Source: Minisyncoccota bacterium
Lineage (GTDB): Bacteria > Patescibacteriota > Minisyncoccia > Phycocordibacterales > DATDWN01
Length of the DNA: 64,000 nucleotides
Assembly: GCA_041674105.1 (NCBI GenBank)
Contig: JBAYWK010000002.1
Span: 79,411-143,410 of the forward strand
Reading direction: 5' to 3'
The notes under the pieces are model-generated. The model searched no databases. It was given only the letters and a program-made list of their open reading frames with translations, and was not told the origin of the DNA. Positions 9,665 to 47,859 of this stretch are shown piece after piece (the first letter of the stretch is position 1; each line of letters starts with the position of its first letter). The position numbers were made by a program, and so were the translations under genes.

Positions 9665-10168
9665 TTAATTAATTTGGTTGTGTTTACTCAGTATATCCAA
9701 AGCTCGTTTGACAATATGATCTCCAATTTCACCCCATTTCACATATTGTCCATAATCTTTAGGGTCAACTAATTTAATTTCTGTAATATCTACATCTGGA
9801 TCAGAAACAAAATCTCCGTATGGCTCAACGATACAGAGTGACCTGGTTTGTCGTATAATTCTATCTTTTTCGTACACATCTATATAACCGATCAATTCTT
9901 GATGTAATACTTTCATATTTGATTCTTCTTTTACTTCTCGAACTGTAGCTTCTTGCCATGTTTCTCCTGGTTCTATTGCTCCACCAGGAAATGTCCAGTA
10001 TCCTTTATCGTTTGCATAGACTACCACCAACTTATTTCCATAAAAACAAAAACCGTGAACAGCTTGAAGGATTTTGTCTCCCAATCCCTCCATTGGATCA
10101 AATCCCTCCCTGTATACATAATCAACCATTCCGCCAGTCCGTGATTTAAATTGTGATTTTATTTCCAT
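9665..10168 (-). CDS. NUDIX hydrolase (paralog 1)
   Basis: Nudix box GGAIEPGETWQEATVREVKEESNM. Confidence 0.8.
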   Translation of the reverse strand: MEIKSQFKSRTGGMVDYVYREGFDPMEGLGDKILQAVHGFCFYGNKLVVVYANDKGYWTFPGGAIEPGETWQEATVREVKEESNMKVLHQELIGYIDVYEKDRIIRQTRSLCIVEPYGDFVSDPDVDITEIKLVDPKDYGQYVKWGEIGDHIVKRALDILSKHNQIN

Positions 10169-10173
10169 ATTTA

Positions 10174-10668
10174 TTAAATTATTTTTCCCCTTAACTCCAG
10201 TGCTCTTTCTATTATCCTATCTCCAATCTCACCCCAATCGAAATATTGTTTGTAATCTTTCGGATCTATTAGTTTTATTTCGGTAATACTTCCATCTGGG
10301 TCAGAAATGAAATCTCCATAAGGTTCCACTATGCAAACATAACGTAGTTGATTAAATATCTTTCCGTCAAAATGAACCTCTTGATATCCAATTGGTGCGA
10401 ATGAAAGAACTCTCATATTCGATTCTTCCTGAATTTCTCTTTTTAGACACTCTTCAAAAGTTTCTCCCTCTTCAATACTCCCGCCTGGTAAAATCCAGTG
10501 ACCACCGCCCTTGATACTGTAGACGACTACAATTTTATCACCAACAAAACAGACCCCGTATGTTTGCGTTACTTTTTTATCTAGAAGGTGGTCAAACGAA
10601 TCAGCGTCTTCATAGATTACTTCTGCTAACTTACCTTCTTTATCTGTAAATTGTGATTTTATTTGCAT
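10174..10668 (-). CDS. NUDIX hydrolase (paralog 2, tandem duplicate)
   Basis: Nudix box GGSIEEGETFEECLKREIQEESNM; N- and C-termini co-linear with paralog 1 (MxIKSQF..., ...EIKLxDPKDYxQYxxWGEIGD). Confidence 0.8.
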   Translation of the reverse strand: MQIKSQFTDKEGKLAEVIYEDADSFDHLLDKKVTQTYGVCFVGDKIVVVYSIKGGGHWILPGGSIEEGETFEECLKREIQEESNMRVLSFAPIGYQEVHFDGKIFNQLRYVCIVEPYGDFISDPDGSITEIKLIDPKDYKQYFDWGEIGDRIIERALELRGKII

Positions 10669-10721
10669 AAGTAATTATTTAAACTATACCAGTTTTGGTT
10701 CGATTTTTAAAGACAAAGAAA

Positions 10722-10750
10722 AAGCACCTGATTCAGGTGCTTTTTCTTTC
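10722..10750 (-). terminator. rho-independent terminator
   Basis: AAAAAGCACCTGA-TTC-AGGTGCTTTTTC perfect hairpin with flanking A/T tracts. Confidence 0.55.
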
Positions 10751-10826
10751 TTGAATACTGCTCTCAGCAGGTATGCAATGGTGGAATAGGTACTTGAGCC
10801 ATTTCGAGTCTCCTCGGAGTCCGAAA

Positions 10827-10865
10827 CTATCTCAAGCTAGCTGGACGTCATGGACAATATCCGAA
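10827..10865 (+). repeat. 36-bp direct repeat, copy 1 (left boundary of Mrr islet)
   Basis: TCTCCTCGGAGTCCGAAACTATCTCAAGCT(A)GCTG; 30 of 30 core identity to copy at 14343-14380. Confidence 0.8.
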
Positions 10866-10931
10866 TGATTTTAATATAGAAAAAGACTAATCTTAAAAGA
10901 CAGTCTTTTTCCTTAAAAACTAGATTACTAA

Positions 10932-11210
10932 CTAAATATTAGACGACATCCAATCTGTTACTTCTTTTGAAATACCTATTGTTGCCCAATCCAAAACATT
11001 TATATCTAGAATCAAAATACCATCATTTTGATCTATAATAGCTTTAATCTCATTTCTTATAACCTCAGTACTCTTGTCTGTTTTAACAAACCAAAGAGAT
11101 TTTAAGGGTTTAGACCAGTAATAAAAGCTTTTTATATAGTTTATAATCCTATTATAATCAGAAGGAGTTTCAGGAACTCTTAGATCATAAGATATTAAAA
11201 CTGTATTCAT
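10932..11210 (-). CDS. hypothetical small protein
   Basis: 92-aa ORF inside the repeat-bounded islet; no confident family assignment. Confidence 0.35.
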   Translation of the reverse strand: MNTVLISYDLRVPETPSDYNRIINYIKSFYYWSKPLKSLWFVKTDKSTEVIRNEIKAIIDQNDGILILDINVLDWATIGISKEVTDWMSSNI

Positions 11211-11672
11211 ATTTATGCTGTTGTGTGGAACTTATCCACATTTTTTTTTGAGTTATCCAATAGTATTTAGTAAACTAAATACTATTGAAACCTTTCGACC
11301 AGATAAATACATCTTGTTGAAGGATTTTTAATAAATTTTTCTTGAAAAAGGTTGGGACCAAAAGGTCTTAGCCTTTTTCATTACCTATTTTACTCTAAAA
11401 CTTTACGAAAAAACTGTGGATAACATTCATTTCAAACTTCATGGAATAAATTCTTTAAAGTGTAAAGATTGGACAGAGAAAAGTTAAGTAATGGTCTCAT
11501 TTTAAAGTTATTTTTTTGTAAAAATAACTTTATCTCCAATTTTTATTCTAAATTTATAATTTATAACCAAATAAAGCATGTACAGACATCCTGTCCGCTG
11601 CTCGCCCTACGGAGCTTCATATTCACAATGAAATATGTGGATATGAAGGGGCGAAGGATGTCCTGTACATGC

Positions 11673-12164
11673 TTATATTAAATTAGATATTGTTTCTTTT
11701 ACGGCCTCCTCGAAACTATCCCCTACTTTTATAAACTCAAGTGGTAGATTTGCTTCTTTAAACATTTGTTCTATTTGTGTATCTCTTTCAATACGATCTG
11801 GTCTATTATGAGATCCCCCATTTATTTCTAGAGCCAATACAGGATTAAAATACTTATCACATACCAGAAAATCAACATGCTTTGGTAAAATCTTATTTCT
11901 CATTTTGTAATAATCATGCCCATTCGGTACATCCAAAATATCAGCTATACGCATCTTTGGAAAAATATAATAATCTTCTGGTAATTGTTTTTTAAGTTCA
12001 AAGAAAAAAGCAGATTCACTCTGATTCATTACACTATATTTTTTCTTATAACTAGGACCTTTAGAAATACCTTCTGTTTTAATTTTCTTAAACCAGTTTA
12101 GATCTTTCAACAAACCTATACCGAGAAGTATTCCTATAAAAATGAAAATTGGTAGTATGTTCAT
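11673..12164 (-). CDS. DUF2726-like protein with N-terminal TM anchor (restriction-endonuclease-like fold)
   Basis: 163 aa; VDFLVCDKYFNPVLALEINGGSHNRPDRIERD matches DUF2726 core; 2-nt gap to upstream mrr. Confidence 0.55.
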   Translation of the reverse strand: MNILPIFIFIGILLGIGLLKDLNWFKKIKTEGISKGPSYKKKYSVMNQSESAFFFELKKQLPEDYYIFPKMRIADILDVPNGHDYYKMRNKILPKHVDFLVCDKYFNPVLALEINGGSHNRPDRIERDTQIEQMFKEANLPLEFIKVGDSFEEAVKETISNLI

Positions 12165-12166
12165 AA

Positions 12167-13060
12167 TTAGATTTCTTCAAAAAAATCTGTATCTATTTCT
12201 TTAAGTTCGTATAGGTTAGCACTTTGAATTCCAACATTGTACTTGATCATAAGATCAGTAAGTTGTTCTCCGTCAATAAGAACAATCTTGTGACTTGCAC
12301 CTTTTGCTTTTTTAATAGCAGAATCATCAAAAGATGAAGTTGTTACAAAAATTCCTTTACTAGCGTCTGAACTCATTGCTCCTATAAAATTTCTTATTTC
12401 CGGCTCTCTAACTTTGTGAGTATCAGCAAATCTTTTAGCTTGAATATAAATTTTTTCTAATCCTAGGCTATCCTGACTTATAACACCATCTACACCGCCA
12501 TCACCGGATTTTGGAGTTTCTTGAAAATCTCCGTACCCCATTTTTTGAAATAAAATCAGAGCAACACGTTCAAAGAAATAAGGATTACTTCCTTGTAATT
12601 TTTCTAATAAGTCACTTTTTAAAGCATCAGAAAATCTCTTAAAACCCTGATCTATCATGTCTTGAGGAGAAAACTTTTCAGATAAAACATTATTAACTTC
12701 TTCAGCGGTTTTTTTATTTCCTTCTGAAAAGAAAATGAAGGAAGGGTACTTTTTTAGAAAATTGACATCTATTTTCTTTACACCAGAAGATAGAACATTT
12801 AGTCCCTCTTCTGTTATTTTAAGATCTGAACCTTTTGATTCTTGTGAAATCAAACCGGCTTTTTTTAGATATGTCCTGCCCCAAGAAACACGATCAAAAA
12901 ATCTAGAATAACCATTCGAGACAGTTTCTTTTTTCTCTTCTTCGGTAAGATTATATTCTTTCTCTAAAATCTCACTAACATCTCTAATTTGGCGAGATTT
13001 TTTGTCGCCTAAAACATTTAGAATTGGAAACATTAATTCATCAAATTTGGGCATGGACAT
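12167..13060 (-). CDS. mrr: Mrr-type restriction endonuclease (modification-dependent)
   Basis: 297 aa; N-terminal winged-helix-like region, C-terminal Mrr_cat motifs GDGGVDGVI ... IYIQAKR. Confidence 0.75.
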   Translation of the reverse strand: MSMPKFDELMFPILNVLGDKKSRQIRDVSEILEKEYNLTEEEKKETVSNGYSRFFDRVSWGRTYLKKAGLISQESKGSDLKITEEGLNVLSSGVKKIDVNFLKKYPSFIFFSEGNKKTAEEVNNVLSEKFSPQDMIDQGFKRFSDALKSDLLEKLQGSNPYFFERVALILFQKMGYGDFQETPKSGDGGVDGVISQDSLGLEKIYIQAKRFADTHKVREPEIRNFIGAMSSDASKGIFVTTSSFDDSAIKKAKGASHKIVLIDGEQLTDLMIKYNVGIQSANLYELKEIDTDFFEEI

Positions 13061-13095
13061 ATATTTACATTACTTTTACGGATTATTTCACTTTT

Positions 13096-13389
13096 TTAAC
13101 CATTTGTCCACCAAGCACCTATTCTAGAACTAATTACTGTAAAAAATCCAATGACCAATAAAGACAAACCGAATCCAACAGATTTACCTAGGACAAAAAG
13201 ACCTAGAACAGTTAATCCTACACCCCACAGATACTGTCTTTTCCATTTTTTGTTTGTCCTTTCTATTTCTACTTTTTTTGTAATAACTTGAGATTCTATT
13301 CTAGAACTCATAGGATTACCACAATGAGGACAAGATTCTGCTTTATCTGAGATTTCCCTTTCACACTCACTACACTTTATTAGAGCCAT
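13096..13389 (-). CDS. zinc-ribbon domain membrane protein
   Basis: CxxC...CxxC (CSECE...CPHCG) followed by two hydrophobic helices. Confidence 0.45.
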   Translation of the reverse strand: MALIKCSECEREISDKAESCPHCGNPMSSRIESQVITKKVEIERTNKKWKRQYLWGVGLTVLGLFVLGKSVGFGLSLLVIGFFTVISSRIGAWWTNG

Positions 13390-13520
13390 AAATTTAAATA
13401 AAACTTATAATTTATGTGCTAACTATAGTATGTAGAATCAAAGTTGGCAATTATAATATACACACTGAATGAAATCTTTCTGTAATCAAAATTCTATCTT
13501 TTACTAACCTCTTCGGACAT

Positions 13521-14069
13521 CTAACGAGCAACGATTTCAAGCACCCTTTCCTTGGGGACTGTAATTGAACTACAAATAGTTTCTTTTTCAACAATATAAT
13601 TAGTAATTATTTTCTTTCCGTCTGGCCCTGTATCATAATTATAACCAACTTCTCTTTGTAATTTGCATTTATTACCTGGATCTAAGTAAAGATAGTCTTT
13701 ACCGTCTAAAATTAGTGTATATAGCCCGAAACAAACATTCTCCTTGTCACAAGTATCTTGCGGCGCAAGAGCAGGCCCATTGTAAATGATAGTTGCTGGT
13801 ACCGAATTAGTGATTACTCGATAACTTAAACCTTGCTTTGCTGAATCAAAGGCAGCCCAACGAGGAAGAAAGAATGCAATAAACACAAATGCCGTCACAA
13901 TCAATATGGTTCTAAAGATGTTTCTGTATATAACTATCTTTAAACATATTTGGAAGTATTTGCCATTTATTTTAGATAAAATATTCCAATATTTTGAAAA
14001 CTCCTTATATAAAAATTTAGAAACAACGAATATGAACGAAAGTGTAAATGAATAAACTATAAAGTCCAA
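13521..14069 (-). CDS. multi-pass membrane protein, apparently 5'-truncated (reading frame open upstream to 14363 without a start codon)
   Basis: frame continues as ...FLTKWAPLLIFFVIILYWEGYVFLSYYFYSKYG... up to a stop inside the 36-bp repeat at 14364-14366; no ATG/GTG/TTG in that stretch. Confidence 0.4.
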   Translation of the reverse strand: MDFIVYSFTLSFIFVVSKFLYKEFSKYWNILSKINGKYFQICLKIVIYRNIFRTILIVTAFVFIAFFLPRWAAFDSAKQGLSYRVITNSVPATIIYNGPALAPQDTCDKENVCFGLYTLILDGKDYLYLDPGNKCKLQREVGYNYDTGPDGKKIITNYIVEKETICSSITVPKERVLEIVAR

Positions 14070-14342
14070 AAATAGTTGTCTTGATTCAGAACCAAGAAAC
14101 CATCCTTTAAAAAAATCAAATATTGTGAGCTGCTTTGCAAACCATGTTAGTGCGACCAGGAAAGTATTAACCCCTGATAGTAAAATTTCCTGAAATAAAA
14201 AATCACCTAGATTAACTGGGACACCATATTTGCTATAAAAATAATAGGATAAGAATACATAGCCTTCCCAATAAAGAATAATGACGAAGAAAATAAGGAG
14301 TGGAGCCCATTTGGTGAGAAAGTCTGTAAGGTTATTTTCTTT

Positions 14343-14380
14343 GACTCTCCTCGGAGTCCGAAACTATCTCAAGCTGGCTG
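14343..14380 (+). repeat. 36-bp direct repeat, copy 2 (right boundary of Mrr islet)
   Basis: same sequence as 10827-10865. Confidence 0.8.
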
Positions 14381-14395
14381 CCCGACAAGGATCGT
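14377..14395 (-). repeat. displaced partial copy of tRNA-Gln 3' end
   Basis: minus-strand GATCCTTGTCGGGCAGCC vs tRNA-Gln 3' end GAGTCCTTGTCGGGCAG. Confidence 0.7.
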
Positions 14396-14560
14396 GATTA
14401 CACTTCTCTCCCTCGCCTCTCAAGTTTGCCGTCGCAAACTTTCGGGCTGGGCACCGACTCACGTCTTGGTTTTGCTAAAGCAAGAATCGCTCCGTCGTTC
14501 GAGTCCTTGTCGCAAAACATGTTTTGCTTCGGACATCAAAAACAGCTTCGCTGTTTTTTG
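14396..14560 (-). repeat. tRNA-trailing structured mini-element (family B-like) downstream of tRNA-Gln
   Basis: contains hairpin AAGTTTG-CGACGG-CAAACTT and an inverted copy of the tRNA T-arm (GCGACAAGGACTCGAACG). Confidence 0.55.
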
Positions 14561-14631
14561 CTGCCCGACAAGGACTCGAACCTCGATACCTTGGACCAAA
14601 ACCAAGTGTCCTACCATTAGACGATCGGGCA
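14561..14631 (-). tRNA. tRNA-Gln (anticodon TTG)
   Basis: UGCCCGA acceptor with U1-A72, D-arm CGTCTAATGGTAGGAC, anticodon loop TTTTGGT, T-arm GAGGTTCGAGTCCTTG. Confidence 0.8.
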
Positions 14632-14922
14632 ATACATATTTATTTTTACTACATTTATTTTTATTCTAAAGGTATCGATACCTTGGACGCTTTTGGACTA
14701 TTTGCCAAGTGTCCTACTACAGCTCCGCAAAGCTACGCTGCACTGCGATTTCAAGAGATTGAGTACAATCTAAGAAATCGGGAGCATTAGACCTGTTTGC
14801 GCAAGCAAACGATCGGGCAATATTTAAAATAAATGACAAGAGCAGTATAGCAGATTATAAAAATTTTTTCTATTCCAAAAAAAACTGTTATAATCAATAT
14901 CTTATTTTTAACAAACTTAGAT

Positions 14923-44046: not shown

Positions 44047-44126
44047 GTTTTTTTATATATTTTTCATATTTCTTACAAAACAAAAACCGCTCTTTTGAAC
44101 GATTTTTATTTTTTGTCTTATATTTG

Positions 44127-44399
44127 TTAGAGTTGTATGTATTTTACTTCTCCCGGATCTATACCGAAAGTTACCAACACGAATCTTATAAGACCATAAA
44201 CAGAAAACATTACCACCATTCCTACTATGCCCCATATCATAGAGTTTCTAGCTTCTACCTTTTTGCTGTCTCCAGCGTCCAAAGAAAGAAATCTAATGAC
44301 ACCATAACCAAAATAAACAAAAGATAAAGCAAACAAAAGATAAATAATTGGATTCAATATCAAACTATTAACTTTGTTTAGAAAAGGGACAATAGTCAT
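44127..44399 (-). CDS. small 2-TM hairpin protein, pilin-like paralog 1 (no signal peptide)
   Basis: 90 aa; core FGYGVIRF-LDAGDSKKVEARNS-MIWGIVGMVVMFSVYGLIRF shared with paralogs 2-6. Confidence 0.6.
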   Translation of the reverse strand: MTIVPFLNKVNSLILNPIIYLLFALSFVYFGYGVIRFLSLDAGDSKKVEARNSMIWGIVGMVVMFSVYGLIRFVLVTFGIDPGEVKYIQL

Positions 44400-44414
44400 A
44401 ATAAAACTTATTTA

Positions 44415-44768
44415 TTATAGACCTGGAACTTTAGGAAGAGTAGGTGCTGATCCGCCTGAGATACCAAAGGCTGTTTGTACCCACGCTATCAAACCATATA
44501 CAGAAGCCATAACTACTAGAGCTATAATACCGTAGATCATTATTGACTTACCTTCTGATGCAGCTTTTGGATCACCTGCTGACTGAATATATTTTACAAG
44601 ACCCCAGAAGAAGTAAATTATAGCTAAAGCAAACAATATTGGGATAACTAAATTGTTTAGAATATCTCCAAACTGCTGAACTAATCTTTCAAGTCCACCT
44701 AGGTTACCTTCTTGAGCAAACGCTAGCATCGGTGATAATGATAGTGCAGCATAAACGATTTTTTTCAT
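44415..44768 (-). CDS. TrbC/VirB2-like pilin-type small membrane protein, paralog 2
   Basis: signal peptide ending AFA-QE, then TM1-FFWGLVKYIQSAGDPKAASEGKS-MIYGIIALVVMASVYGL. Confidence 0.65.
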   Translation of the reverse strand: MKKIVYAALSLSPMLAFAQEGNLGGLERLVQQFGDILNNLVIPILFALAIIYFFWGLVKYIQSAGDPKAASEGKSIMIYGIIALVVMASVYGLIAWVQTAFGISGGSAPTLPKVPGL

Positions 44769-44889
44769 TATTTTTATAATATATTATAATAATTTTTATA
44801 AAAACCAACGACCACTTTTAAAATAAAGTACCTCTGTATTATAGTATAAACAAGAGTAAAAAACAAGGTCTATGTGGATAAATTGAAGA

Positions 44890-45288
44890 CTAATTACAAT
44901 CTGCGCCCAAGTTGTCGTTTACAAGACAGTCATTGCTCATCGCTCCAGAACTATTACCCCCAGAACCATTTGGGCTTATTCCTACAGTTGAACCTATAAA
45001 ACCTAAAATTCCATAAATAGAAGCCATAACAAAAAGAGCTATGATACCCCAAATCATTCTATTTCTACCCTCTGTACGAGCCTTATCTTCTCCAGAGTGG
45101 AGTATGAACTGACCTGCACCCCAAAAAAACAGTAATAAACCTAGTCCAAAGAAAACTTTTATTAAAAGATTTATAAGAGATATAGAACCTACCAGCAACC
45201 CTTTAAGTCCTTCCAAGGCAGCATAAGAAACTAAAGGAAATAAAAATAAAGAAAGTGTAGATAATATTTGTATTTTTTTTGTATTCAT
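44890..45288 (-). CDS. TrbC/VirB2-like pilin-type small membrane protein, paralog 3
   Basis: start at internal MNTKKIQ (ATG 45288); signal peptide ending SYA-ALEG; FFWGAGQFILHSGEDKARTEGRN-RMIWGIIALFVMASIYGILGFI. Confidence 0.6.
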   Translation of the reverse strand: MNTKKIQILSTLSLFLFPLVSYAALEGLKGLLVGSISLINLLIKVFFGLGLLLFFWGAGQFILHSGEDKARTEGRNRMIWGIIALFVMASIYGILGFIGSTVGISPNGSGGNSSGAMSNDCLVNDNLGADCN

Positions 45289-45295
45289 AATTTTA

Positions 45296-45688
45296 TTAAA
45301 ATTTAATCGTGCTATCCACCCACTCAATCTGCCCTCCCGTGGGCAAAAAAGGCATAGCACTGCCATCGCCACCCTTACCAAATTCTAGATCATTTACAAC
45401 AAGAGTAACTATTGTTCTATAAGAAAACAAGATAAATAAAGCTAAAATACCCCAAAGCATATAATTTTTACCTTTACTTAATTCCGCTTCATTCCCTGAA
45501 TTTATAACAAATTTAGATAATCCCCAGAAAAAAACAACTAAAGCGGCGCCGAACATAATAGGGACCATAAGATTTAGGATACTAATCACATAAGCTACTA
45601 CGCTCTTGAAAGTACCCCCTTCATTCCCAAAGGCAAAAGTAAAAAATGGAACACTATAAAAAATTATAGAACTAAAAAAATATTTCAT
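45296..45688 (-). CDS. TrbC/VirB2-like pilin-type small membrane protein, paralog 4
   Basis: signal peptide ending AFG-NEGG; FFWGLSKFVINSGNEAELSKGKN-YMLWGILALFILF. Confidence 0.6.
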   Translation of the reverse strand: MKYFFSSIIFYSVPFFTFAFGNEGGTFKSVVAYVISILNLMVPIMFGAALVVFFWGLSKFVINSGNEAELSKGKNYMLWGILALFILFSYRTIVTLVVNDLEFGKGGDGSAMPFLPTGGQIEWVDSTIKF

Positions 45689-45692
45689 ATAT

Positions 45693-46106
45693 CTAATTTA
45701 TTTCAATAAATTGACTAACTGTACTTTGTAAAACCTTAGAAATGCCCGCGGCGCCGAGCAAAATTCCCGCCCCTACAAGGGCCCAGAGCAAGTTTTCATG
45801 AGCACTTTGTATTTTAGCTGAGTTTCCTCTAGCTGTGACATACTTAAAACCAGCTAGTATAATATACATTACAGAAGCTACAGCAGCTATGGGCATAACC
45901 ACATTGTTTAGTATTGCAACCAAAAGATCAGGAAGATTATTTCCTACTGATTGTTTTAAAGGATTTGTAATCCTTATAACCTGACTACTACCACCAGGAC
46001 TTTTTGGTGGAGGAGTACTTCCATTGGCATAGGCTACATTATTTGTAAACAGCACAGGTAACAATAAAACTGATGTAATTAGTAAATGTATTAGAAATTT
46101 TTTCAT
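45693..46106 (-). CDS. TrbC/VirB2-like pilin-type small membrane protein, paralog 5
   Basis: signal peptide MKKFLIHLLITSVLLLPVLFTNNVAYA-NG; ILAGFKYVTARGNSAKIQSAHEN-LLWALVGAGILLGAAGI. Confidence 0.6.
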   Translation of the reverse strand: MKKFLIHLLITSVLLLPVLFTNNVAYANGSTPPPKSPGGSSQVIRITNPLKQSVGNNLPDLLVAILNNVVMPIAAVASVMYIILAGFKYVTARGNSAKIQSAHENLLWALVGAGILLGAAGISKVLQSTVSQFIEIN

Positions 46107-46118
46107 TTTATTTTATTT

Positions 46119-46559
46119 TTATATTGGAAAACTTTCGCTTTCACGCAAATTTTCATCCACCAAAACAGAAACTATTAAGTTGACTATAAGCCAAGCTGCC
46201 ATAACTAAAATTATACCAACAACAACTTTCCAAAGCATCTTATTTGCTTCAGCTCTTTTACCAGCATTATCTCCCGAAGTCATATAGTTGTAACCAGCAT
46301 AAGCTATGACAACTACAGAAAACATCAAAGCGATTCCTGTAGCAAAATTTACTAAACTTTTTATGGTCACGATAATATCAGAAAAATTACAAGTGTCTCC
46401 CTCGCAACTTGGAACGACTCCTGTATAACCACTACCGCTACCTTGTGTCTGTCCACTCGGTGGAGGAGTACTTCCATTGGCATAGACTACACTATTTGTA
46501 AACAACACAGGTAACAATAAAACTGATGTAATTAGTAAATGTATTAGAAATTTTTTCAT
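46119..46559 (-). CDS. TrbC/VirB2-like pilin-type small membrane protein, paralog 6
   Basis: start at MKKFLIHLL (ATG 46559); first 40 codons nearly identical in DNA to paralog 5; AYAGYNYMTSGDNAGKRAEANK-MLWKVVVGIILVMAAWLIV. Confidence 0.6.
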   Translation of the reverse strand: MKKFLIHLLITSVLLLPVLFTNSVVYANGSTPPPSGQTQGSGSGYTGVVPSCEGDTCNFSDIIVTIKSLVNFATGIALMFSVVVIAYAGYNYMTSGDNAGKRAEANKMLWKVVVGIILVMAAWLIVNLIVSVLVDENLRESESFPI

Positions 46560-46560
46560 T

Positions 46561-47859
46561 TTATTTTTTAAACAAAGAATCAATAGAATCACTGGCTTTT
46601 AAAATAGCTTCTGAAACTCTTTGCTGTCCAGATGTCACAGACTCTACCATAGTTTTAAATATTTCTGTTGTATTTACAGGAGAAGGATCCACCCAAGATT
46701 TACTTATGAGAGCCGAGTCATAAAAAACAGATCTATAAGCATCCGTTGGCTTGTCCGCTAAAAGATCTCTCCTAACTGGAGGAAGATTTGTCTTGGATTC
46801 CAAAACTTTCAAAGCATCAGGCTCAACCAAGCTTGTCACAAGCAAAAAAGCTGCTCCTATAGCCTTGGACTGTTTAACAATAGAAAGTCCATAGATATTT
46901 GCAAAGTTTGACATATTTTTTGCTGTTCTGATTTGAGGAACATAAGTGACATCAAAATTTAAGTTTGGATTTTTCTGCTGAATAGAAAACAGTTCGGAAG
47001 CAAAACCAACATAAGTAGCCAAATTTGAAGAAAGAAAAAAATTCAAGGAAGAAGGTAGTGACCTATTCCAAGTATAATAAACTGAAGTCGGATTAGAAAA
47101 CTGAGTATAAAAATTTAAAGCTGACTGACCAGGAGCAATAGTATAATTTAGCTGAGAAGATAAAACTGACTTATATCCAGCAGAATCAGTGTAAGAAACT
47201 ATAGGAGTACCAGCTTGGAGCAAAAGTAAAGAGAAAATACTTTTAGCATTAGTTACATTTTTCCATTCTCCGAGAGAAAGAGCACTTTGCATAATATTTC
47301 CAGAAGAGTCTTTACGAGTCACTTTATCTATAAGTCCATAAAATTCATCCCAATATTTTGGCGGACTTGATATGAGATTGTTTGAAAACATATCTCTGTT
47401 CCAATACATAACCATCGGATCTATTATAAAAGGAAATGCTGTAATACCTTTAGTAGTCAGGAAAATCTCACCATCTTCTATAAAGATATCTTTAAAATTT
47501 CTTTGACTGAAATTTTCATAAGGTACAACAAATATCTTGTTTCTATGAGTATAGATGGAGTCTTGTCTCAAAATAACTATATCTGGACCAACCCCGTCGG
47601 CTAAAGCTTCTATAAACTTATCATCAAAATCCGCAGAATCCTTTCTGACATAAGTAACAGCGACTTTTTTATTTTTGGCTATACTTGAAGCTTTGTAAAC
47701 ATTATTGAAAGTATCTTCAGGTATTGTGCCCCAAATCAGAAGAGAAGCAGATCCTTCACCTAGACCGCTCTTCTGGGTGGCAAACAAACCTAACCCTAAA
47801 ACAAGAGATAGAATAAAAATTATTATGAGCCCAATTTGAAAATTACTCATTTCTTTCAT
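46561..47859 (-). CDS. secreted extracellular solute-binding-protein-like (SBP family 1-like) protein, orphan (no adjacent ABC permease/ATPase)
   Basis: N-terminal TM/signal; LLIWGTIPEDTFNNVYKASSIAKNKKVAVTYVRKDSADFDDKFIEALADGVGPDIVIL matches SBP_bac_1 N-terminal lobe pattern. Confidence 0.5.
   Translation of the reverse strand: MKEMSNFQIGLIIIFILSLVLGLGLFATQKSGLGEGSASLLIWGTIPEDTFNNVYKASSIAKNKKVAVTYVRKDSADFDDKFIEALADGVGPDIVILRQDSIYTHRNKIFVVPYENFSQRNFKDIFIEDGEIFLTTKGITAFPFIIDPMVMYWNRDMFSNNLISSPPKYWDEFYGLIDKVTRKDSSGNIMQSALSLGEWKNVTNAKSIFSLLLLQAGTPIVSYTDSAGYKSVLSSQLNYTIAPGQSALNFYTQFSNPTSVYYTWNRSLPSSLNFFLSSNLATYVGFASELFSIQQKNPNLNFDVTYVPQIRTAKNMSNFANIYGLSIVKQSKAIGAAFLLVTSLVEPDALKVLESKTNLPPVRRDLLADKPTDAYRSVFYDSALISKSWVDPSPVNTTEIFKTMVESVTSGQQRVSEAILKASDSIDSLFKK

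What the first reader, a model, noticed from the sequence alone, without database searches (positions are those of the whole stretch)
10827..14631. 3.5-kb Mrr/DUF2726 islet bounded by 36-bp direct repeats, docked onto the tRNA-Gln locus
Identical 30-nt cores (TCTCCTCGGAGTCCGAAACTATCTCAAGCT) occur at 10827-10865 and 14343-14380 in direct orientation. The second copy directly abuts the displaced tRNA-Gln 3' fragment, so the islet sits at the outer edge of an already-occupied tRNA integration site. Between the repeats lie an Mrr-type modification-dependent restriction enzyme directly followed (2-nt gap) by a membrane-anchored DUF2726 protein. The pairing looks like a two-gene defence module. Also present are a Zn-ribbon membrane protein, a 92-aa unknown, and a membrane-protein gene whose reading frame runs into the right-hand repeat without a start codon. 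No integrase is present, so mobility, if any, must be supplied in trans.
Basis: partly seen in the sequence, partly recalled or inferred. Interest (0 to 1): 0.6.

Follow-up and report, generated by a model that had tools for sequence, protein, structure and literature searches.

The report
Integrase-less defence islet at tRNA-Gln
A 3.7-kb block of foreign DNA carrying two nuclease genes sits exactly at the end of a glutamine tRNA gene in an uncultured Paceibacterota bacterium and is present in some cells of the population but absent in others; it is an ordinary kind of decayed mobile island, and its "repeat" is really a copied piece of a neighbouring, highly conserved small-RNA gene.

Summary
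The direct repeat is real: an identical 30-nt core at 10809-10838 and 14346-14375, extending to 52 nt at 87%. The repeat is neither a REP element nor an element-specific att sequence. It is the 5' end of a ~92-nt conserved non-coding RNA, absent from Rfam, that directly follows tRNA-Gln in many Paceibacterota, joined to a tRNA-Gln 3'-end-like block.

A contig from the same metagenome carries the empty site, with tRNA-Gln abutting the ncRNA. The two alleles differ by one precise 3,720-bp indel (10840-14559, ±4 nt GCTG) in otherwise identical flanks. The variable unit therefore includes the right repeat copy and the 168-bp spacer, and it ends at the tRNA's terminal CAGC.

No recombinase is encoded in the islet or anywhere in the window. 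A relative carries an intact element at tRNA-Gln with a large serine recombinase and a DUF2726 homologue. Other genomes hold different defence cargo at the same junction.

The best reading is a decayed, CIME-like islet in tandem with a remnant of a second element. Mrr next to DUF2726 is not a conserved pair (0 of 7 homologue contexts). Known kind, modest interest.

The parts
10748..10841 (-). Intact conserved ~92-nt non-coding RNA. In the empty allele it directly follows tRNA-Gln. Its 5' end is the left repeat copy.
   Evidence: Covariance model R1 scores it 115 bits. The 15-species alignment has 91% mean identity and shows a 5' hairpin plus a 3' hairpin. A variant copy in L018 supplies 5 compensatory pairs. 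There is no Rfam hit.
10715..10749 (.). Perfect 17-bp palindrome with flanking T/A runs. It is the intrinsic terminator closing the tRNA-Gln/ncRNA unit.
   Evidence: Inverted repeat I10. An equivalent hairpin follows the ncRNA in every other locus.
10803..10854 (+). Left 52-nt repeat copy (identical core 10809-10838). It is the host ncRNA 5' end, then A, then GCTG, then a foreign tRNA-Gln-3'-end-like block (GACGTCATGGA).
10840..10855 (-). tRNA-Gln 3'-end mimic (RNA sense GTCCATGACGTCCAGC). It keeps T-stem and acceptor spacing but matches the host tRNA at only 12 of 16 positions. It is the element-derived half of the outer junction.
   Evidence: Read from the sequence. A similar foreign block, GTACCAGACGGTCAGCC, precedes the ncRNA in L024.
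10840..14559 (.). The 3,720-bp segment present in this allele and absent from the empty allele. The position is ambiguous by the 4-nt GCTG, so it could be shifted up to 10844-14563.
   Evidence: Deleting any of five equivalent 3,720-bp intervals regenerates contig k141_968971 exactly. The 10,670-nt left flank has 2 mismatches, both 8.7 kb from the junction.
10932..11210 (-). 92-aa protein of the phage family phrog_1090, with a weak Cas2-like signal.
   Evidence: PHROGs E = 7.7e-20, full length. Pfam/PADLOC Cas2 hits at about 1e-4, below cut-off. Homologues lie in lysogeny modules of temperate phages; for example phiFL2B gp05 sits near a serine-recombinase integrase.
11570..11680 (-). Very stable ~100-nt hairpin immediately downstream of the DUF2726 stop codon.
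   Evidence: MFE -49.8 kcal/mol, z = -9.3. No convincing Rfam hit. No other copy in the window.
11673..12164 (-). Membrane-anchored DUF2726 protein with a PD-(D/E)XK / Vsr-like nuclease fold.
   Evidence: Pfam PF10881, E = 3.6e-23. The N-terminal hydrophobic helix is read from the sequence. Fold classification from PMC3424549.
12167..13060 (-). Mrr-type (type IV, modification-dependent) restriction endonuclease.
   Evidence: Mrr_N 3.7e-23 and Mrr_cat 1.7e-34. PADLOC mREase_IV 3e-67, full length. The VDG...IQAK motif is present in the sequence.
13096..13389 (-). Zn-ribbon protein with a C-terminal transmembrane region.
   Evidence: Zn_Ribbon_1, E = 5.8e-6. Sequence.
13521..14363 (-). 5'-truncated membrane ORF (probable pseudogene). 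The frame is open through the right repeat and there is no start codon before 14069.
   Evidence: No family hits and no homologues.
14340..14391 (+). Right repeat copy (identical core 14346-14375). It is a foreign-type ncRNA 5' fragment carrying the consensus G (CCA-like) rather than the host A, followed by GCTG and a host-identical tRNA-Gln 3' block at 14377-14391.
14392..14559 (.). 168-bp GC-rich spacer with several hairpins. It has a terminator next to the tRNA and a 16-nt inverted copy of the tRNA T-arm (14497-14512). I read it as the remnant of a second tRNA-Gln-targeting element.
   Evidence: I16. Fold z = -3.5. Related spacers with the same T-loop junction occur in L022/L009, L020 and L021.
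14560..14631 (-). Intact tRNA-Gln (UUG), the integration target.
   Evidence: ARAGORN. Rfam tRNA, 58 bits.
14672..14822 (-). Degenerate 5' part of a second tRNA-Gln copy, interrupted by three GC-rich insertions, upstream of the functional tRNA.
   Evidence: Read from the sequence. Not called by ARAGORN or Rfam. Analogous debris lies upstream of tRNA-Gln in L020 and L021.

Best explanation
The region is a small genomic islet that has lost its integrase. It resembles a CIME (cis-mobilizable element): it keeps both attachment junctions but has no recombination genes. It lies at the 3' terminus of tRNA-Gln in a Candidatus Paceibacterota genome, in tandem with a ~170-bp remnant of a second tRNA-Gln-targeting element.

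Shown:
- In the ancestral, empty arrangement, tRNA-Gln is followed immediately by a conserved ~92-nt ncRNA and a terminator.
- The occupied allele carries one 3,720-bp block inserted exactly after the tRNA's terminal CAGC.
- Reading outward from the tRNA, the block holds the spacer, a tRNA-3'-end copy, a foreign-type copy of the ncRNA's first ~36 nt, a truncated membrane gene, a Zn-ribbon gene, Mrr, DUF2726, a long hairpin, a phage-family 92-aa gene, and a foreign tRNA-Gln-3'-end mimic.

Inferred:
- The islet's original attP was a ~52-nt mimic of the tRNA-Gln/ncRNA junction.
- Recombination with the chromosomal junction crossed over inside GCTG (CAGC on the tRNA strand), producing the two repeat copies.
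- A second element later integrated at the same point and decayed to the spacer.
- The composite now enters or leaves as one unit through its outermost junctions, using a recombinase supplied in trans. A large serine recombinase like that of the related intact element in L031 is the leading candidate. A tyrosine integrase is not excluded.

The cargo is defence-type: a stand-alone type IV restriction enzyme (Mrr) and an independent membrane-anchored DUF2726 nuclease. They are not a dedicated two-gene system.
For: - Empty site: contig k141_968971 from the same sample has ncRNA-A-tRNA-Gln contiguous. The window equals that contig plus a single 3,720-bp insertion with 4-nt GCTG ambiguity, and the flanks are 10,668/10,670 identical. 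The left junction is seen independently in a Logan assembly, L001, which is identical over 10766-13445.
- Host/foreign partition: the left copy has the host A and host ncRNA but a foreign tRNA-like block. The right copy has the host-identical tRNA block but the foreign G and foreign-type ncRNA continuation. This places a reciprocal crossover in GCTG, the same 4 nt that bound the population indel.
- Recurrence: the same junction is occupied in other genomes with different cargo. L024 has a foreign tRNA-like end plus an S_4TM effector gene. L022/L009 has a gene with only a sub-threshold SIR2_2 match (E = 0.0033, below the Pfam cut-off; SIR2-like by N-terminal motif), an ncRNA 5' 32 nt, a tRNA fragment, a 142-nt spacer and the tRNA.
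- Intact relative: L031 carries a 504-aa large serine recombinase abutting tRNA-Gln, a Rep, an HTH protein and a DUF2726 homologue (55% identity), bounded by an 18-nt repeat of the tRNA's T-loop-to-3' end.
- No recombinase in the islet or window.
- tRNA-Gln lies within 8 kb of Mrr or DUF2726 homologues in 5 of 8 other contexts.
- The concept of decay, accretion and composite excision is documented in PMC5704250. The use of tDNA fragments as island endpoints is from PMC4383910.
Against: - No recombinase acting on this site has been identified in this genome, and no circular junction was found (viral contigs only).
- The composite's outer junctions share only 12/16 plus 4 nt. Whether one enzyme can recombine them is untested.
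- The right junction cuts a gene, so the present right end is not an intact attP arm.
- The order and number of events (one composite insertion versus two successive ones) cannot be resolved.
- The empty allele could simply be the ancestral strain rather than an excision product.
- L031's host lacks the ncRNA, so its recombinase need not recognise the same attB.
Confidence: 0.6

Rival explanations
1. The islet is a strain-variable cassette exchanged by homologous recombination after DNA uptake. The near-invariant ncRNA and the tRNA-Gln would serve as homology arms, or a circle carrying the 36-52-nt ncRNA homology would integrate Campbell-style. No site-specific recombinase would be involved today, and the repeats would be by-products.
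For: The ncRNA is 91% identical across species, with a 30-nt block identical in the two copies. DprA is encoded nearby. No recombinase is present in the window. Cargo differs between genomes at the same place.
Against: The observed indel is not bounded by the homologous repeats. It is bounded by a 4-nt GCTG, and the right repeat lies inside the unit. There is no SNP cluster next to the junction; the nearest of 2 mismatches is 8.7 kb away. Junction positions recur to the nucleotide in unrelated genomes. A homology of 30-36 nt is at the lower limit for RecA-type recombination (established knowledge).
Confidence: 0.2
2. The locus descends from two tandem tRNA-Gln/ncRNA units with ordinary genes between them, as in L018. 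Decay left a 36-nt ncRNA stub and a 16-nt tRNA stub, and the empty allele is a later deletion.
For: Some genomes have two units: JBAQUS01 (L020 and L023), and L018 with two ncRNA copies 3.4 kb apart. tRNA-Gln debris is abundant at the locus.
Against: The left tRNA-like stub differs from the host tRNA at 4 of 16 positions, while the neighbouring non-functional 30-nt ncRNA stub is 30/30 identical. Neutral decay would not give that pattern. The right stub carries foreign-type bases (G, AG) that match other species rather than the host. This model needs several deletions ending at exactly the positions seen in L022 and L024. The islet genes are phage- or defence-type, with slightly lower GC.
Confidence: 0.08
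3. One reading: Mrr and the membrane-anchored DUF2726 protein form a dedicated two-gene defence system that works together.
For: The genes are co-oriented and only 2 nt apart. Both are nuclease-fold proteins. DUF2726 is found fused to defence-associated N-terminal domains (PMC3710099). Nearest DUF2726 homologues sit beside other defence genes such as Shedu SduA_C and AAA_15.
Against: The adjacency is absent in 4 of 4 contexts of the closest DUF2726 homologues and 3 of 3 of the closest Mrr homologues. A tblastn cross-check found no hidden partner. PADLOC has no model joining them, and Mrr matches the stand-alone mREase_IV model over its full length. DUF2726 occurs alone on more than 2,500 enterobacterial plasmids.
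Confidence: 0.12
4. Assembly artefact: the join across the repeat, or the empty-site contig, is chimeric.
For: Metagenome contigs break at exactly these positions. L002 starts at 10809, L003 starts at 14560, and L004 ends 31 nt past the tRNA.
Against: The empty junction sequence (…AAGCTAGCTGCCCGACAAGGACTCG…) cannot be built from k-mers of the occupied allele at k = 141. The right copy has G and lacks the C of GGACTCG. The left junction is covered by an independent Logan contig. The NCBI MAG contig of 145 kb carries the DUF2726 gene.
Confidence: 0.02

Closest known systems
CIMEs (cis-mobilizable elements) and tandem accretion at tRNA genes, e.g. ICESt1-related elements of Streptococcus thermophilus (reviewed in PMC5704250)
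   Same: Attachment-type repeats are retained on both sides and there are no integration or transfer genes. The islet lies in tandem with another decayed element at the 3' end of a tRNA gene. The composite behaves as a single indel unit.
   Different: No helper ICE or IME has been identified. The host is an uncultured Paceibacterota (CPR) bacterium. One half of the att mimic is the 5' end of a neighbouring ncRNA gene. Mobilisation has not been demonstrated.
tDNA-integrated genomic islands as defined by Islander (PMC4383910; Williams 2002, sublocation classes, cited there)
   Same: The target tRNA is intact and there are displaced, co-oriented 3' tDNA fragments marking island ends. The array is tandem. 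The identity block starts in the T-loop/T-stem region.
   Different: There is no integrase gene in the island. The crossover maps to the extreme 3' terminus (CAGC) and the identity block runs on into the downstream gene. The outer fragment is a divergent mimic (12/16).
Large-serine-recombinase integrative elements and prophages (L031 element here; phiC31, Bxb1 and SPbeta type from general knowledge)
   Same: A related Paceibacterota element with a Resolvase + Recombinase + Zn_ribbon_recom protein is integrated at the same part of tRNA-Gln and carries a DUF2726 homologue. The short crossover region and limited attP/attB identity on one side fit serine recombinases.
   Different: The window encodes no such enzyme. 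The 52-nt near-identity of the inferred attP and attB is more typical of tyrosine integrases.
E. coli Mrr / type IV modification-dependent restriction (PADLOC mREase_IV)
   Same: It has the same two-domain architecture (Mrr_N winged helix plus Mrr_cat) and a full-length match.
   Different: About 300 aa and from a CPR lineage. Specificity is unknown. It is followed by a DUF2726 gene, which is not the rule in relatives.
tRNA 3' external-transcribed-spacer sRNAs (e.g. 3'ETS-leuZ of E. coli; from general knowledge). Relevant to the ncRNA only.
   Same: It is a small RNA encoded directly after the last tRNA of a transcription unit and before the terminator, so it is presumably released by tRNA 3' processing.
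   Different: It is far more conserved (91% across species). It is duplicated together with each tRNA-Gln gene. Its function is unknown and there is no Rfam family.

Membership tests
tDNA-integrated genomic island (Islander criteria) | Intact tRNA gene plus co-oriented displaced 3' fragment(s) of that tRNA marking the far end | tested here: met
   tRNA-Gln is at 14560-14631. A perfect 15-nt fragment lies at 14377-14391 and a 12/16 mimic at 10840-10855, all on the same strand.
tDNA-integrated genomic island (Islander criteria) | Integrase gene inside the island | tested here: not met
   No recombinase domain in any of the five ORFs, and none in the called genes of the whole window. tblastn with the L031 serine recombinase was negative.
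tDNA-integrated genomic island (Islander criteria) | Empty site in close relatives | tested here: met
   Contig k141_968971 from the same sample. The tRNA-Gln/ncRNA junction is unoccupied in L006-L008, L010, L012, L013, L016, L017, L019-L021 and L023.
CIME (cis-mobilizable element) | attL and attR retained, with integration and transfer genes lost | tested here: met
   52-nt repeats at 87% identity with a 30-nt identical core. No recombinase or transfer genes.
CIME (cis-mobilizable element) | Excision or transfer when a related functional element supplies the recombinase | not testable with these tools
   There is only indirect evidence: the precise 3,720-bp presence/absence polymorphism and a related recombinase-bearing element in another genome.
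Type IV restriction endonuclease, Mrr family | Mrr_N DNA-binding domain plus Mrr_cat PD-(D/E)XK catalytic domain with the D...QxK motif | tested here: met
   Pfam 3.7e-23 and 1.7e-34. PADLOC mREase_IV 3e-67. VDG...IQAK is present in the translated sequence. Activity was not tested.
   0 of 4 DUF2726-homologue contexts and 0 of 3 Mrr-homologue contexts show the pair. This is a small sample.
REP-like / generic intergenic repeat | Many dispersed copies at unrelated intergenic sites | tested here: not met
   Two copies in the window. In 12 GTDB genomes there are one or two copies, next to a tRNA-Gln gene wherever that side of the contig is present (next to a degenerate tRNA-like sequence in L018; the flank is missing or replaced in L011, L014 and L024). 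None in viral contigs.
Large-serine-recombinase integrative element (as in L031) | Resolvase + Recombinase + Zn-ribbon recombinase gene at the tRNA-proximal end | tested here: not met
   Present in L031 but absent from the window. Only the repeat geometry of the 168-bp spacer (T-loop to CAGC) resembles L031.
Any Rfam RNA family (for the repeated ncRNA) | Score at or above a family's gathering threshold | tested here: not met
   Only tRNAs pass. No SRP, 6S, tmRNA or other plausible hit even at E <= 10 over 10650-10950.

The most novel reading that the evidence does not exclude
The junction between tRNA-Gln and a previously undescribed, near-invariant ~92-nt RNA could be a dedicated cross-species landing pad in Paceibacterota. 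On this reading, a family of very small integrative elements carries a mimic of that junction as attP. A serine recombinase moves them, often in trans, and they shuttle single defence genes (Mrr, DUF2726, S_4TM, SIR2-like) between CPR lineages. The ncRNA itself would be a new housekeeping RNA class co-inherited with every tRNA-Gln gene.
Probability: 0.3. Interest if true: 0.6.

Novelty: new member of a known kind. Interest (0 to 1): 0.4.

Why it matters
Mobile elements and defence islands of CPR/Patescibacteria are poorly charted. This locus gives a clean, nucleotide-resolved case: both alleles occur in one population, the crossover point is defined, a recombinase-bearing relative exists, and the same junction is reused with different defence cargo. 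That makes the attB/attP pair directly testable.

The by-product may matter more than the islet. The "repeat" exposes a strongly conserved small RNA that follows tRNA-Gln in 12 GTDB genomes scanned (and is present twice where a genome has two tRNA-Gln genes), yet it is absent from Rfam. The islet itself, with Mrr and a solitary DUF2726 nuclease, is ordinary.

Tried and rejected
- REP-like repeat: rejected. There are only two copies in the window, and elsewhere the sequence always lies next to tRNA-Gln.
- Known RNA family for the repeated sequence or the spacer (SRP, 6S, tmRNA, riboswitch, group I/II intron, bridge/omega RNA): no Rfam support. A small peptide in the ncRNA was rejected because the ATG is missing in L012 and conservation is at the nucleotide level.
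- Parent element through the truncated membrane ORF: no homologues at all. It is not related to the gene at the equivalent position in L022.
- Circular junction or element end in viral contigs: none. Viral relatives of the L031 recombinase are only 23-29% identical and uninformative.
- CAST-like homing spacer or IS110 bridge RNA for the internal target copy: rejected. There is no transposase, Cas or DEDD gene, and the geometry is wrong.
- Import from a diverged donor by flanking homologous recombination: no SNP cluster near the junction.
- Literature on an Mrr-DUF2726 pair or on CPR tRNA islands: nothing specific found.
- Structure prediction of the 92-aa and DUF2726 proteins was not run, as it was judged not decisive for the finding.

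Full report
**Observation**

The window contains two direct copies of TCTCCTCGGAGTCCGAAACTATCTCAAGCT, at 10809-10838 and 14346-14375. No other copy exists in 64 kb even with three mismatches, and none appears in 100 shuffles. Ungapped extension gives a 52-nt repeat at 87% identity, 10803-10854 and 14340-14391.

tRNA-Gln(UUG) is on the minus strand at 14560-14631. Its last 15 nt (GCTGCCCGACAAGGA on the plus strand) recur perfectly at 14377-14391, one base after the right repeat core.

Five minus-strand ORFs lie between the repeats:
- a 92-aa protein at 10932-11210;
- DUF2726 at 11673-12164 (PF10881, 3.6e-23), with a hydrophobic N-terminus;
- Mrr at 12167-13060 (Mrr_N plus Mrr_cat; PADLOC mREase_IV 3e-67), separated from DUF2726 by 2 nt;
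- a Zn-ribbon/TM protein at 13096-13389;
- an ORF open from 13521 through the right repeat to an in-frame TAG at 14364-14366, with no ATG/GTG/TTG before 14069.

None of the five has a recombinase domain.

**What the repeat is**

Exact-match scans with part of the core found it in five metagenome contigs and in GTDB genomes of Parcubacteria, Paceibacterota and Minisyncoccia. There was also one chance hit in a Cloacimonetes MAG. The window's own DUF2726 protein is named by NCBI as coming from a Candidatus Paceibacterota MAG.

In all of these genomes the core is the start of a ~92-nt sequence that begins right after tRNA-Gln (UUG or CUG) plus CCA. It ends at an intrinsic terminator. Fifteen copies from organisms with unrelated flanks are 91% identical on average.

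They fold into a 5' two-helix hairpin and a short 3' hairpin. A divergent second copy in L018 keeps the 5' hairpin through five compensatory pairs. That is a single sequence on a model-fitted alignment, so it is only modest evidence.

A genome with two tRNA-Gln genes has two copies, one after each (L020 and L023). No Rfam family matches at gathering thresholds or at E <= 10.

The left "repeat" is therefore simply the 5' end of the intact host ncRNA gene (10748-10841, 115 bits with model R1). The right "repeat" is a displaced ~36-nt fragment of such a gene fused to a tRNA-Gln 3' block.

**Empty site and the real unit of variation**

Exact-protein look-ups showed that metagenome ERZ27247358 holds two contigs. 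Contig k141_2283740 starts at window 10809 and is identical to the window from there on. Contig k141_968971 (208 kb) runs from the NUDIX genes through the terminator and the ncRNA and then directly into tRNA-Gln.

Removing any of five equivalent 3,720-bp intervals (10840-14559 up to 10844-14563) from the window regenerates that contig exactly. The boundaries are therefore ambiguous only by the tetranucleotide GCTG. The shared 10,670-nt left flank differs at two positions, both 8.7 kb away.

The empty junction cannot be assembled from k-mers of the occupied allele. The right copy has G where the empty site has A, and it lacks one base of GGACTCG. An independent Logan contig also covers the left junction. 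Both alleles are therefore real and nearly isogenic.

The variable unit is not the repeat-bounded 3.5 kb. It is the islet plus the right repeat copy plus the 168-bp spacer, and it ends at the tRNA's terminal CAGC.

**Anatomy of the junctions**

The left copy has the host-type A, the host ncRNA, and then GCTG followed by GACGTCATGGA. In RNA sense this is GTCCATGACGTCCAGC. It keeps the T-stem, acceptor and discriminator spacing of a tRNA-Gln 3' end but matches the host tRNA at only 12 of 16 positions.

The right copy has the host-identical tRNA block. It also has G, giving the CCA-like consensus of other species, and a foreign-type continuation (GGAGAGTCAAAG against host GGAGACTCGAAAT). This reciprocal partition is what a single site-specific exchange gives when a ~52-nt attP mimic of the tRNA-Gln/ncRNA junction recombines with the chromosomal junction. 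It puts the crossover inside GCTG, the same four bases that bound the population indel.

Neutral decay is an unlikely explanation for the divergent tRNA-like block. The adjacent non-functional 30-nt ncRNA stub is 30/30 identical.

**The spacer**

The 168-bp spacer (14392-14559) is GC-rich and hairpin-rich (z = -3.5). It carries a terminator next to the tRNA and a 16-nt inverted copy of the T-arm (I16). It is flanked by the 15-nt tRNA repeat, which becomes 18/19 if one deletion is allowed, starting in the T-loop.

Related spacers with the same T-loop junction (…TCG|GTCACA…hairpin…GCGACCCC…) occur in L022/L009, L020 and L021. They are sometimes associated with degenerate tRNA-Gln copies. The window also has such a degenerate copy at 14672-14822. 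I read the spacer as the stump of a second element that used the same target.

**Recurrence and a recombinase-bearing relative**

The same junction is occupied elsewhere by different DNA.
- In L024 the ncRNA is preceded by another foreign tRNA-like end (GTACCAGACGGTCAGCC) and a gene for an S_4TM effector domain.
- In L022/L009 a 300-aa protein is followed by the first 32 nt of the ncRNA, 19 nt of that host's own tRNA-Gln(CUG), a 142-nt spacer and the tRNA. The protein has the N-terminal GAGAS…P.W motif and a weak SIR2_2 hit.
- In L035 the start codon of an 80%-identical Mrr begins immediately after the CAGC of tRNA-Gln(CUG).

tRNA-Gln lies within 8 kb of Mrr or DUF2726 homologues in five of eight other contexts examined.

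L031 is the most informative relative. It is a 6.1-kb element bounded by an 18-nt repeat of the tRNA-Gln T-loop-to-3' end. Abutting the tRNA it encodes a 504-aa large serine recombinase (Resolvase 5e-22, Recombinase 2e-17, Zn_ribbon_recom 2e-7). It also encodes a CRESS-type Rep, an HTH protein and a DUF2726 homologue 55% identical to the window's.

The window has no such gene. The precomputed Pfam hits for all called genes across the window list no recombinase or transposase. tblastn with the L031 enzyme is also negative.

**Mechanism proposed**

The empty site, the single precise indel, the host/foreign partition, the recurrence of the junction and the absence of a recombinase are shown. The rest is inferred, as follows.
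1. An element with a junction-mimic attP integrated by reciprocal exchange at CAGC.
2. It lost its recombinase. The 5'-truncated gene at the tRNA-proximal end is consistent with a deletion there.
3. A second element then integrated at the same point and decayed to the spacer.
4. The composite is now gained or lost as one unit through its outermost junctions, by an enzyme supplied in trans.

This is the decay, accretion and composite-excision scheme described for CIMEs (PMC5704250). It also fits the tDNA-fragment logic of Islander (PMC4383910). A serine recombinase is the leading candidate because of L031. A tyrosine integrase is not excluded, because the inferred attP and attB share a long near-identical block.

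One side effect follows from the geometry. The insertion separates the ncRNA from its tRNA promoter by 3.7 kb and at least two terminator-like hairpins. Only a weak promoter-like match lies upstream of it.

**Cargo**

Mrr is a complete type IV enzyme by domain content and motif. DUF2726 is a PD-(D/E)XK / Vsr-like nuclease fold of unknown role (PMC3424549, PMC3710099).

Their adjacency is not conserved. The four closest DUF2726 contexts have neighbours such as Shedu SduA_C, AAA_15, Rep or peptidase M23. The three closest Mrr contexts (76-80% identity) are followed by a methyltransferase, GrpB, or Fic plus a type I R-M system. A tblastn cross-check found no hidden partner. DUF2726 also occurs alone on more than 2,500 enterobacterial plasmids.

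I therefore treat the two as independent nuclease genes that happen to share an operon-like arrangement here. The sample is small, so a functional link is not excluded.

The 92-aa protein belongs to phrog_1090 (7.7e-20). Its homologues sit in lysogeny modules of temperate phages next to integrase and repressor genes. This fits a phage or integrative-element origin for the islet.

**Rivals**
- Exchange by homologous recombination through the conserved tRNA and ncRNA is plausible in principle. It does not explain an indel bounded by 4 nt with the right repeat inside it, the lack of SNPs near the junction, or the nucleotide-level recurrence of junctions.
- Descent from two tandem tRNA-Gln/ncRNA units is contradicted by the foreign-type bases and the uneven "decay".
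- Assembly artefact is excluded by the junction sequences.

**Verdict**

Three corrections are needed. The repeat is a duplicated piece of a conserved host RNA gene. The mobile unit is 3,720 bp and ends at the tRNA terminus. The Mrr-DUF2726 pair is not a recognised or conserved module.

It is a new member of a known kind (a CIME-like tDNA islet) in a little-studied phylum, and of moderate interest. The unannotated conserved RNA and the reuse of its junction with tRNA-Gln as a landing site are the parts most worth following.

Noticed in passing
window 10748-10841 (-); also L006, L008, L010-L014, L016-L021, L023, L024: A ~92-nt non-coding RNA candidate lies directly after tRNA-Gln + CCA and before a terminator. 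It is 91% identical across Paceibacterota/Minisyncoccia genomes with unrelated flanks, and is present twice where there are two tRNA-Gln genes. It has a 5' two-helix hairpin plus a conserved 3' domain and matches no Rfam family. Its 5' CUUGAG can pair either with an internal CUCAAG or with the 3'-terminal UUCAAG.
   Followed up: partly
L031 2004-8152: An intact 6.1-kb integrative element at tRNA-Gln(UUG) in a Nomurabacteria-type MAG. It has a 504-aa large serine recombinase overlapping the tRNA 3' end, a CRESS-like Rep (Viral_Rep + RNA_helicase), an HTH protein, a DUF2726 homologue and a DUF948-like protein, and is bounded by an 18-nt direct repeat, CGAGTCCCTGTCCGGCAG.
   Followed up: partly
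window 14392-14559 and 14672-14822; L020 2344-2520; L021 7440-7628; L022 4200-4338: A family of ~140-170-nt GC-rich, hairpin-rich spacers lies next to tRNA-Gln with a common T-loop junction (…TCG|GTCACA…GCGACCCC…). They are often beside degenerate tRNA-Gln copies. The window's upstream pseudo-tRNA-Gln is interrupted by three GC-rich hairpin insertions.
   Followed up: partly
window 11570-11680 (-): An exceptionally stable ~100-nt hairpin (-49.8 kcal/mol, z = -9.3) lies immediately after the DUF2726 stop codon, inside a 460-nt non-coding stretch. It has no Rfam family and no other copy in the window.
   Followed up: partly
window 10932-11210 (-): The 92-aa protein belongs to phrog_1090 (unknown function), with sub-threshold Cas2 similarity. 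Homologues occur in lysogeny modules of Enterococcus phiFL, Staphylococcus, Mannheimia and Bacillus temperate phages. One is annotated 'Cas system-associated protein'.
   Followed up: partly
L035 3173-4144: In another Paceibacterota contig, the ATG of an 80%-identical Mrr gene starts at the base following the CAGC terminus of tRNA-Gln(CUG). A LAGLIDADG-like ORF lies just upstream of the tRNA. No ncRNA copy was detected there.
   Followed up: no
L018 3260-3467 and 4964-5644: A divergent second ncRNA copy is preceded by a ~90-nt tRNA-like sequence (acceptor TGACTGA/TCAGTCA) that ARAGORN does not call. An IS200-like Y1 transposase gene lies between the two ncRNA copies.
   Followed up: no
window 9665-10168 and 10174-10668 (-): Two tandem NUDIX hydrolase paralogues (a 153-nt stretch 72% identical at 500-nt spacing) lie directly downstream of the ncRNA terminator. 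NUDIX and UPF0020 methyltransferase genes recur downstream of tRNA-Gln in relatives (L025, L035, L036).
   Followed up: no
window about 44100-46600 (-): A cluster of five or six small genes with T4SS_pilin (PF18895) or TrbC-like hits lies next to a solute-binding protein gene.
   Followed up: no
L025 3464-3515: Downstream of tRNA-Gln in the DUF2726/Shedu locus there is a much shorter (~50-nt) sequence. It starts TTTGAG and ends AGTATTCAAAC, and may be a reduced relative of the ncRNA that the R1 model does not detect.
   Followed up: no
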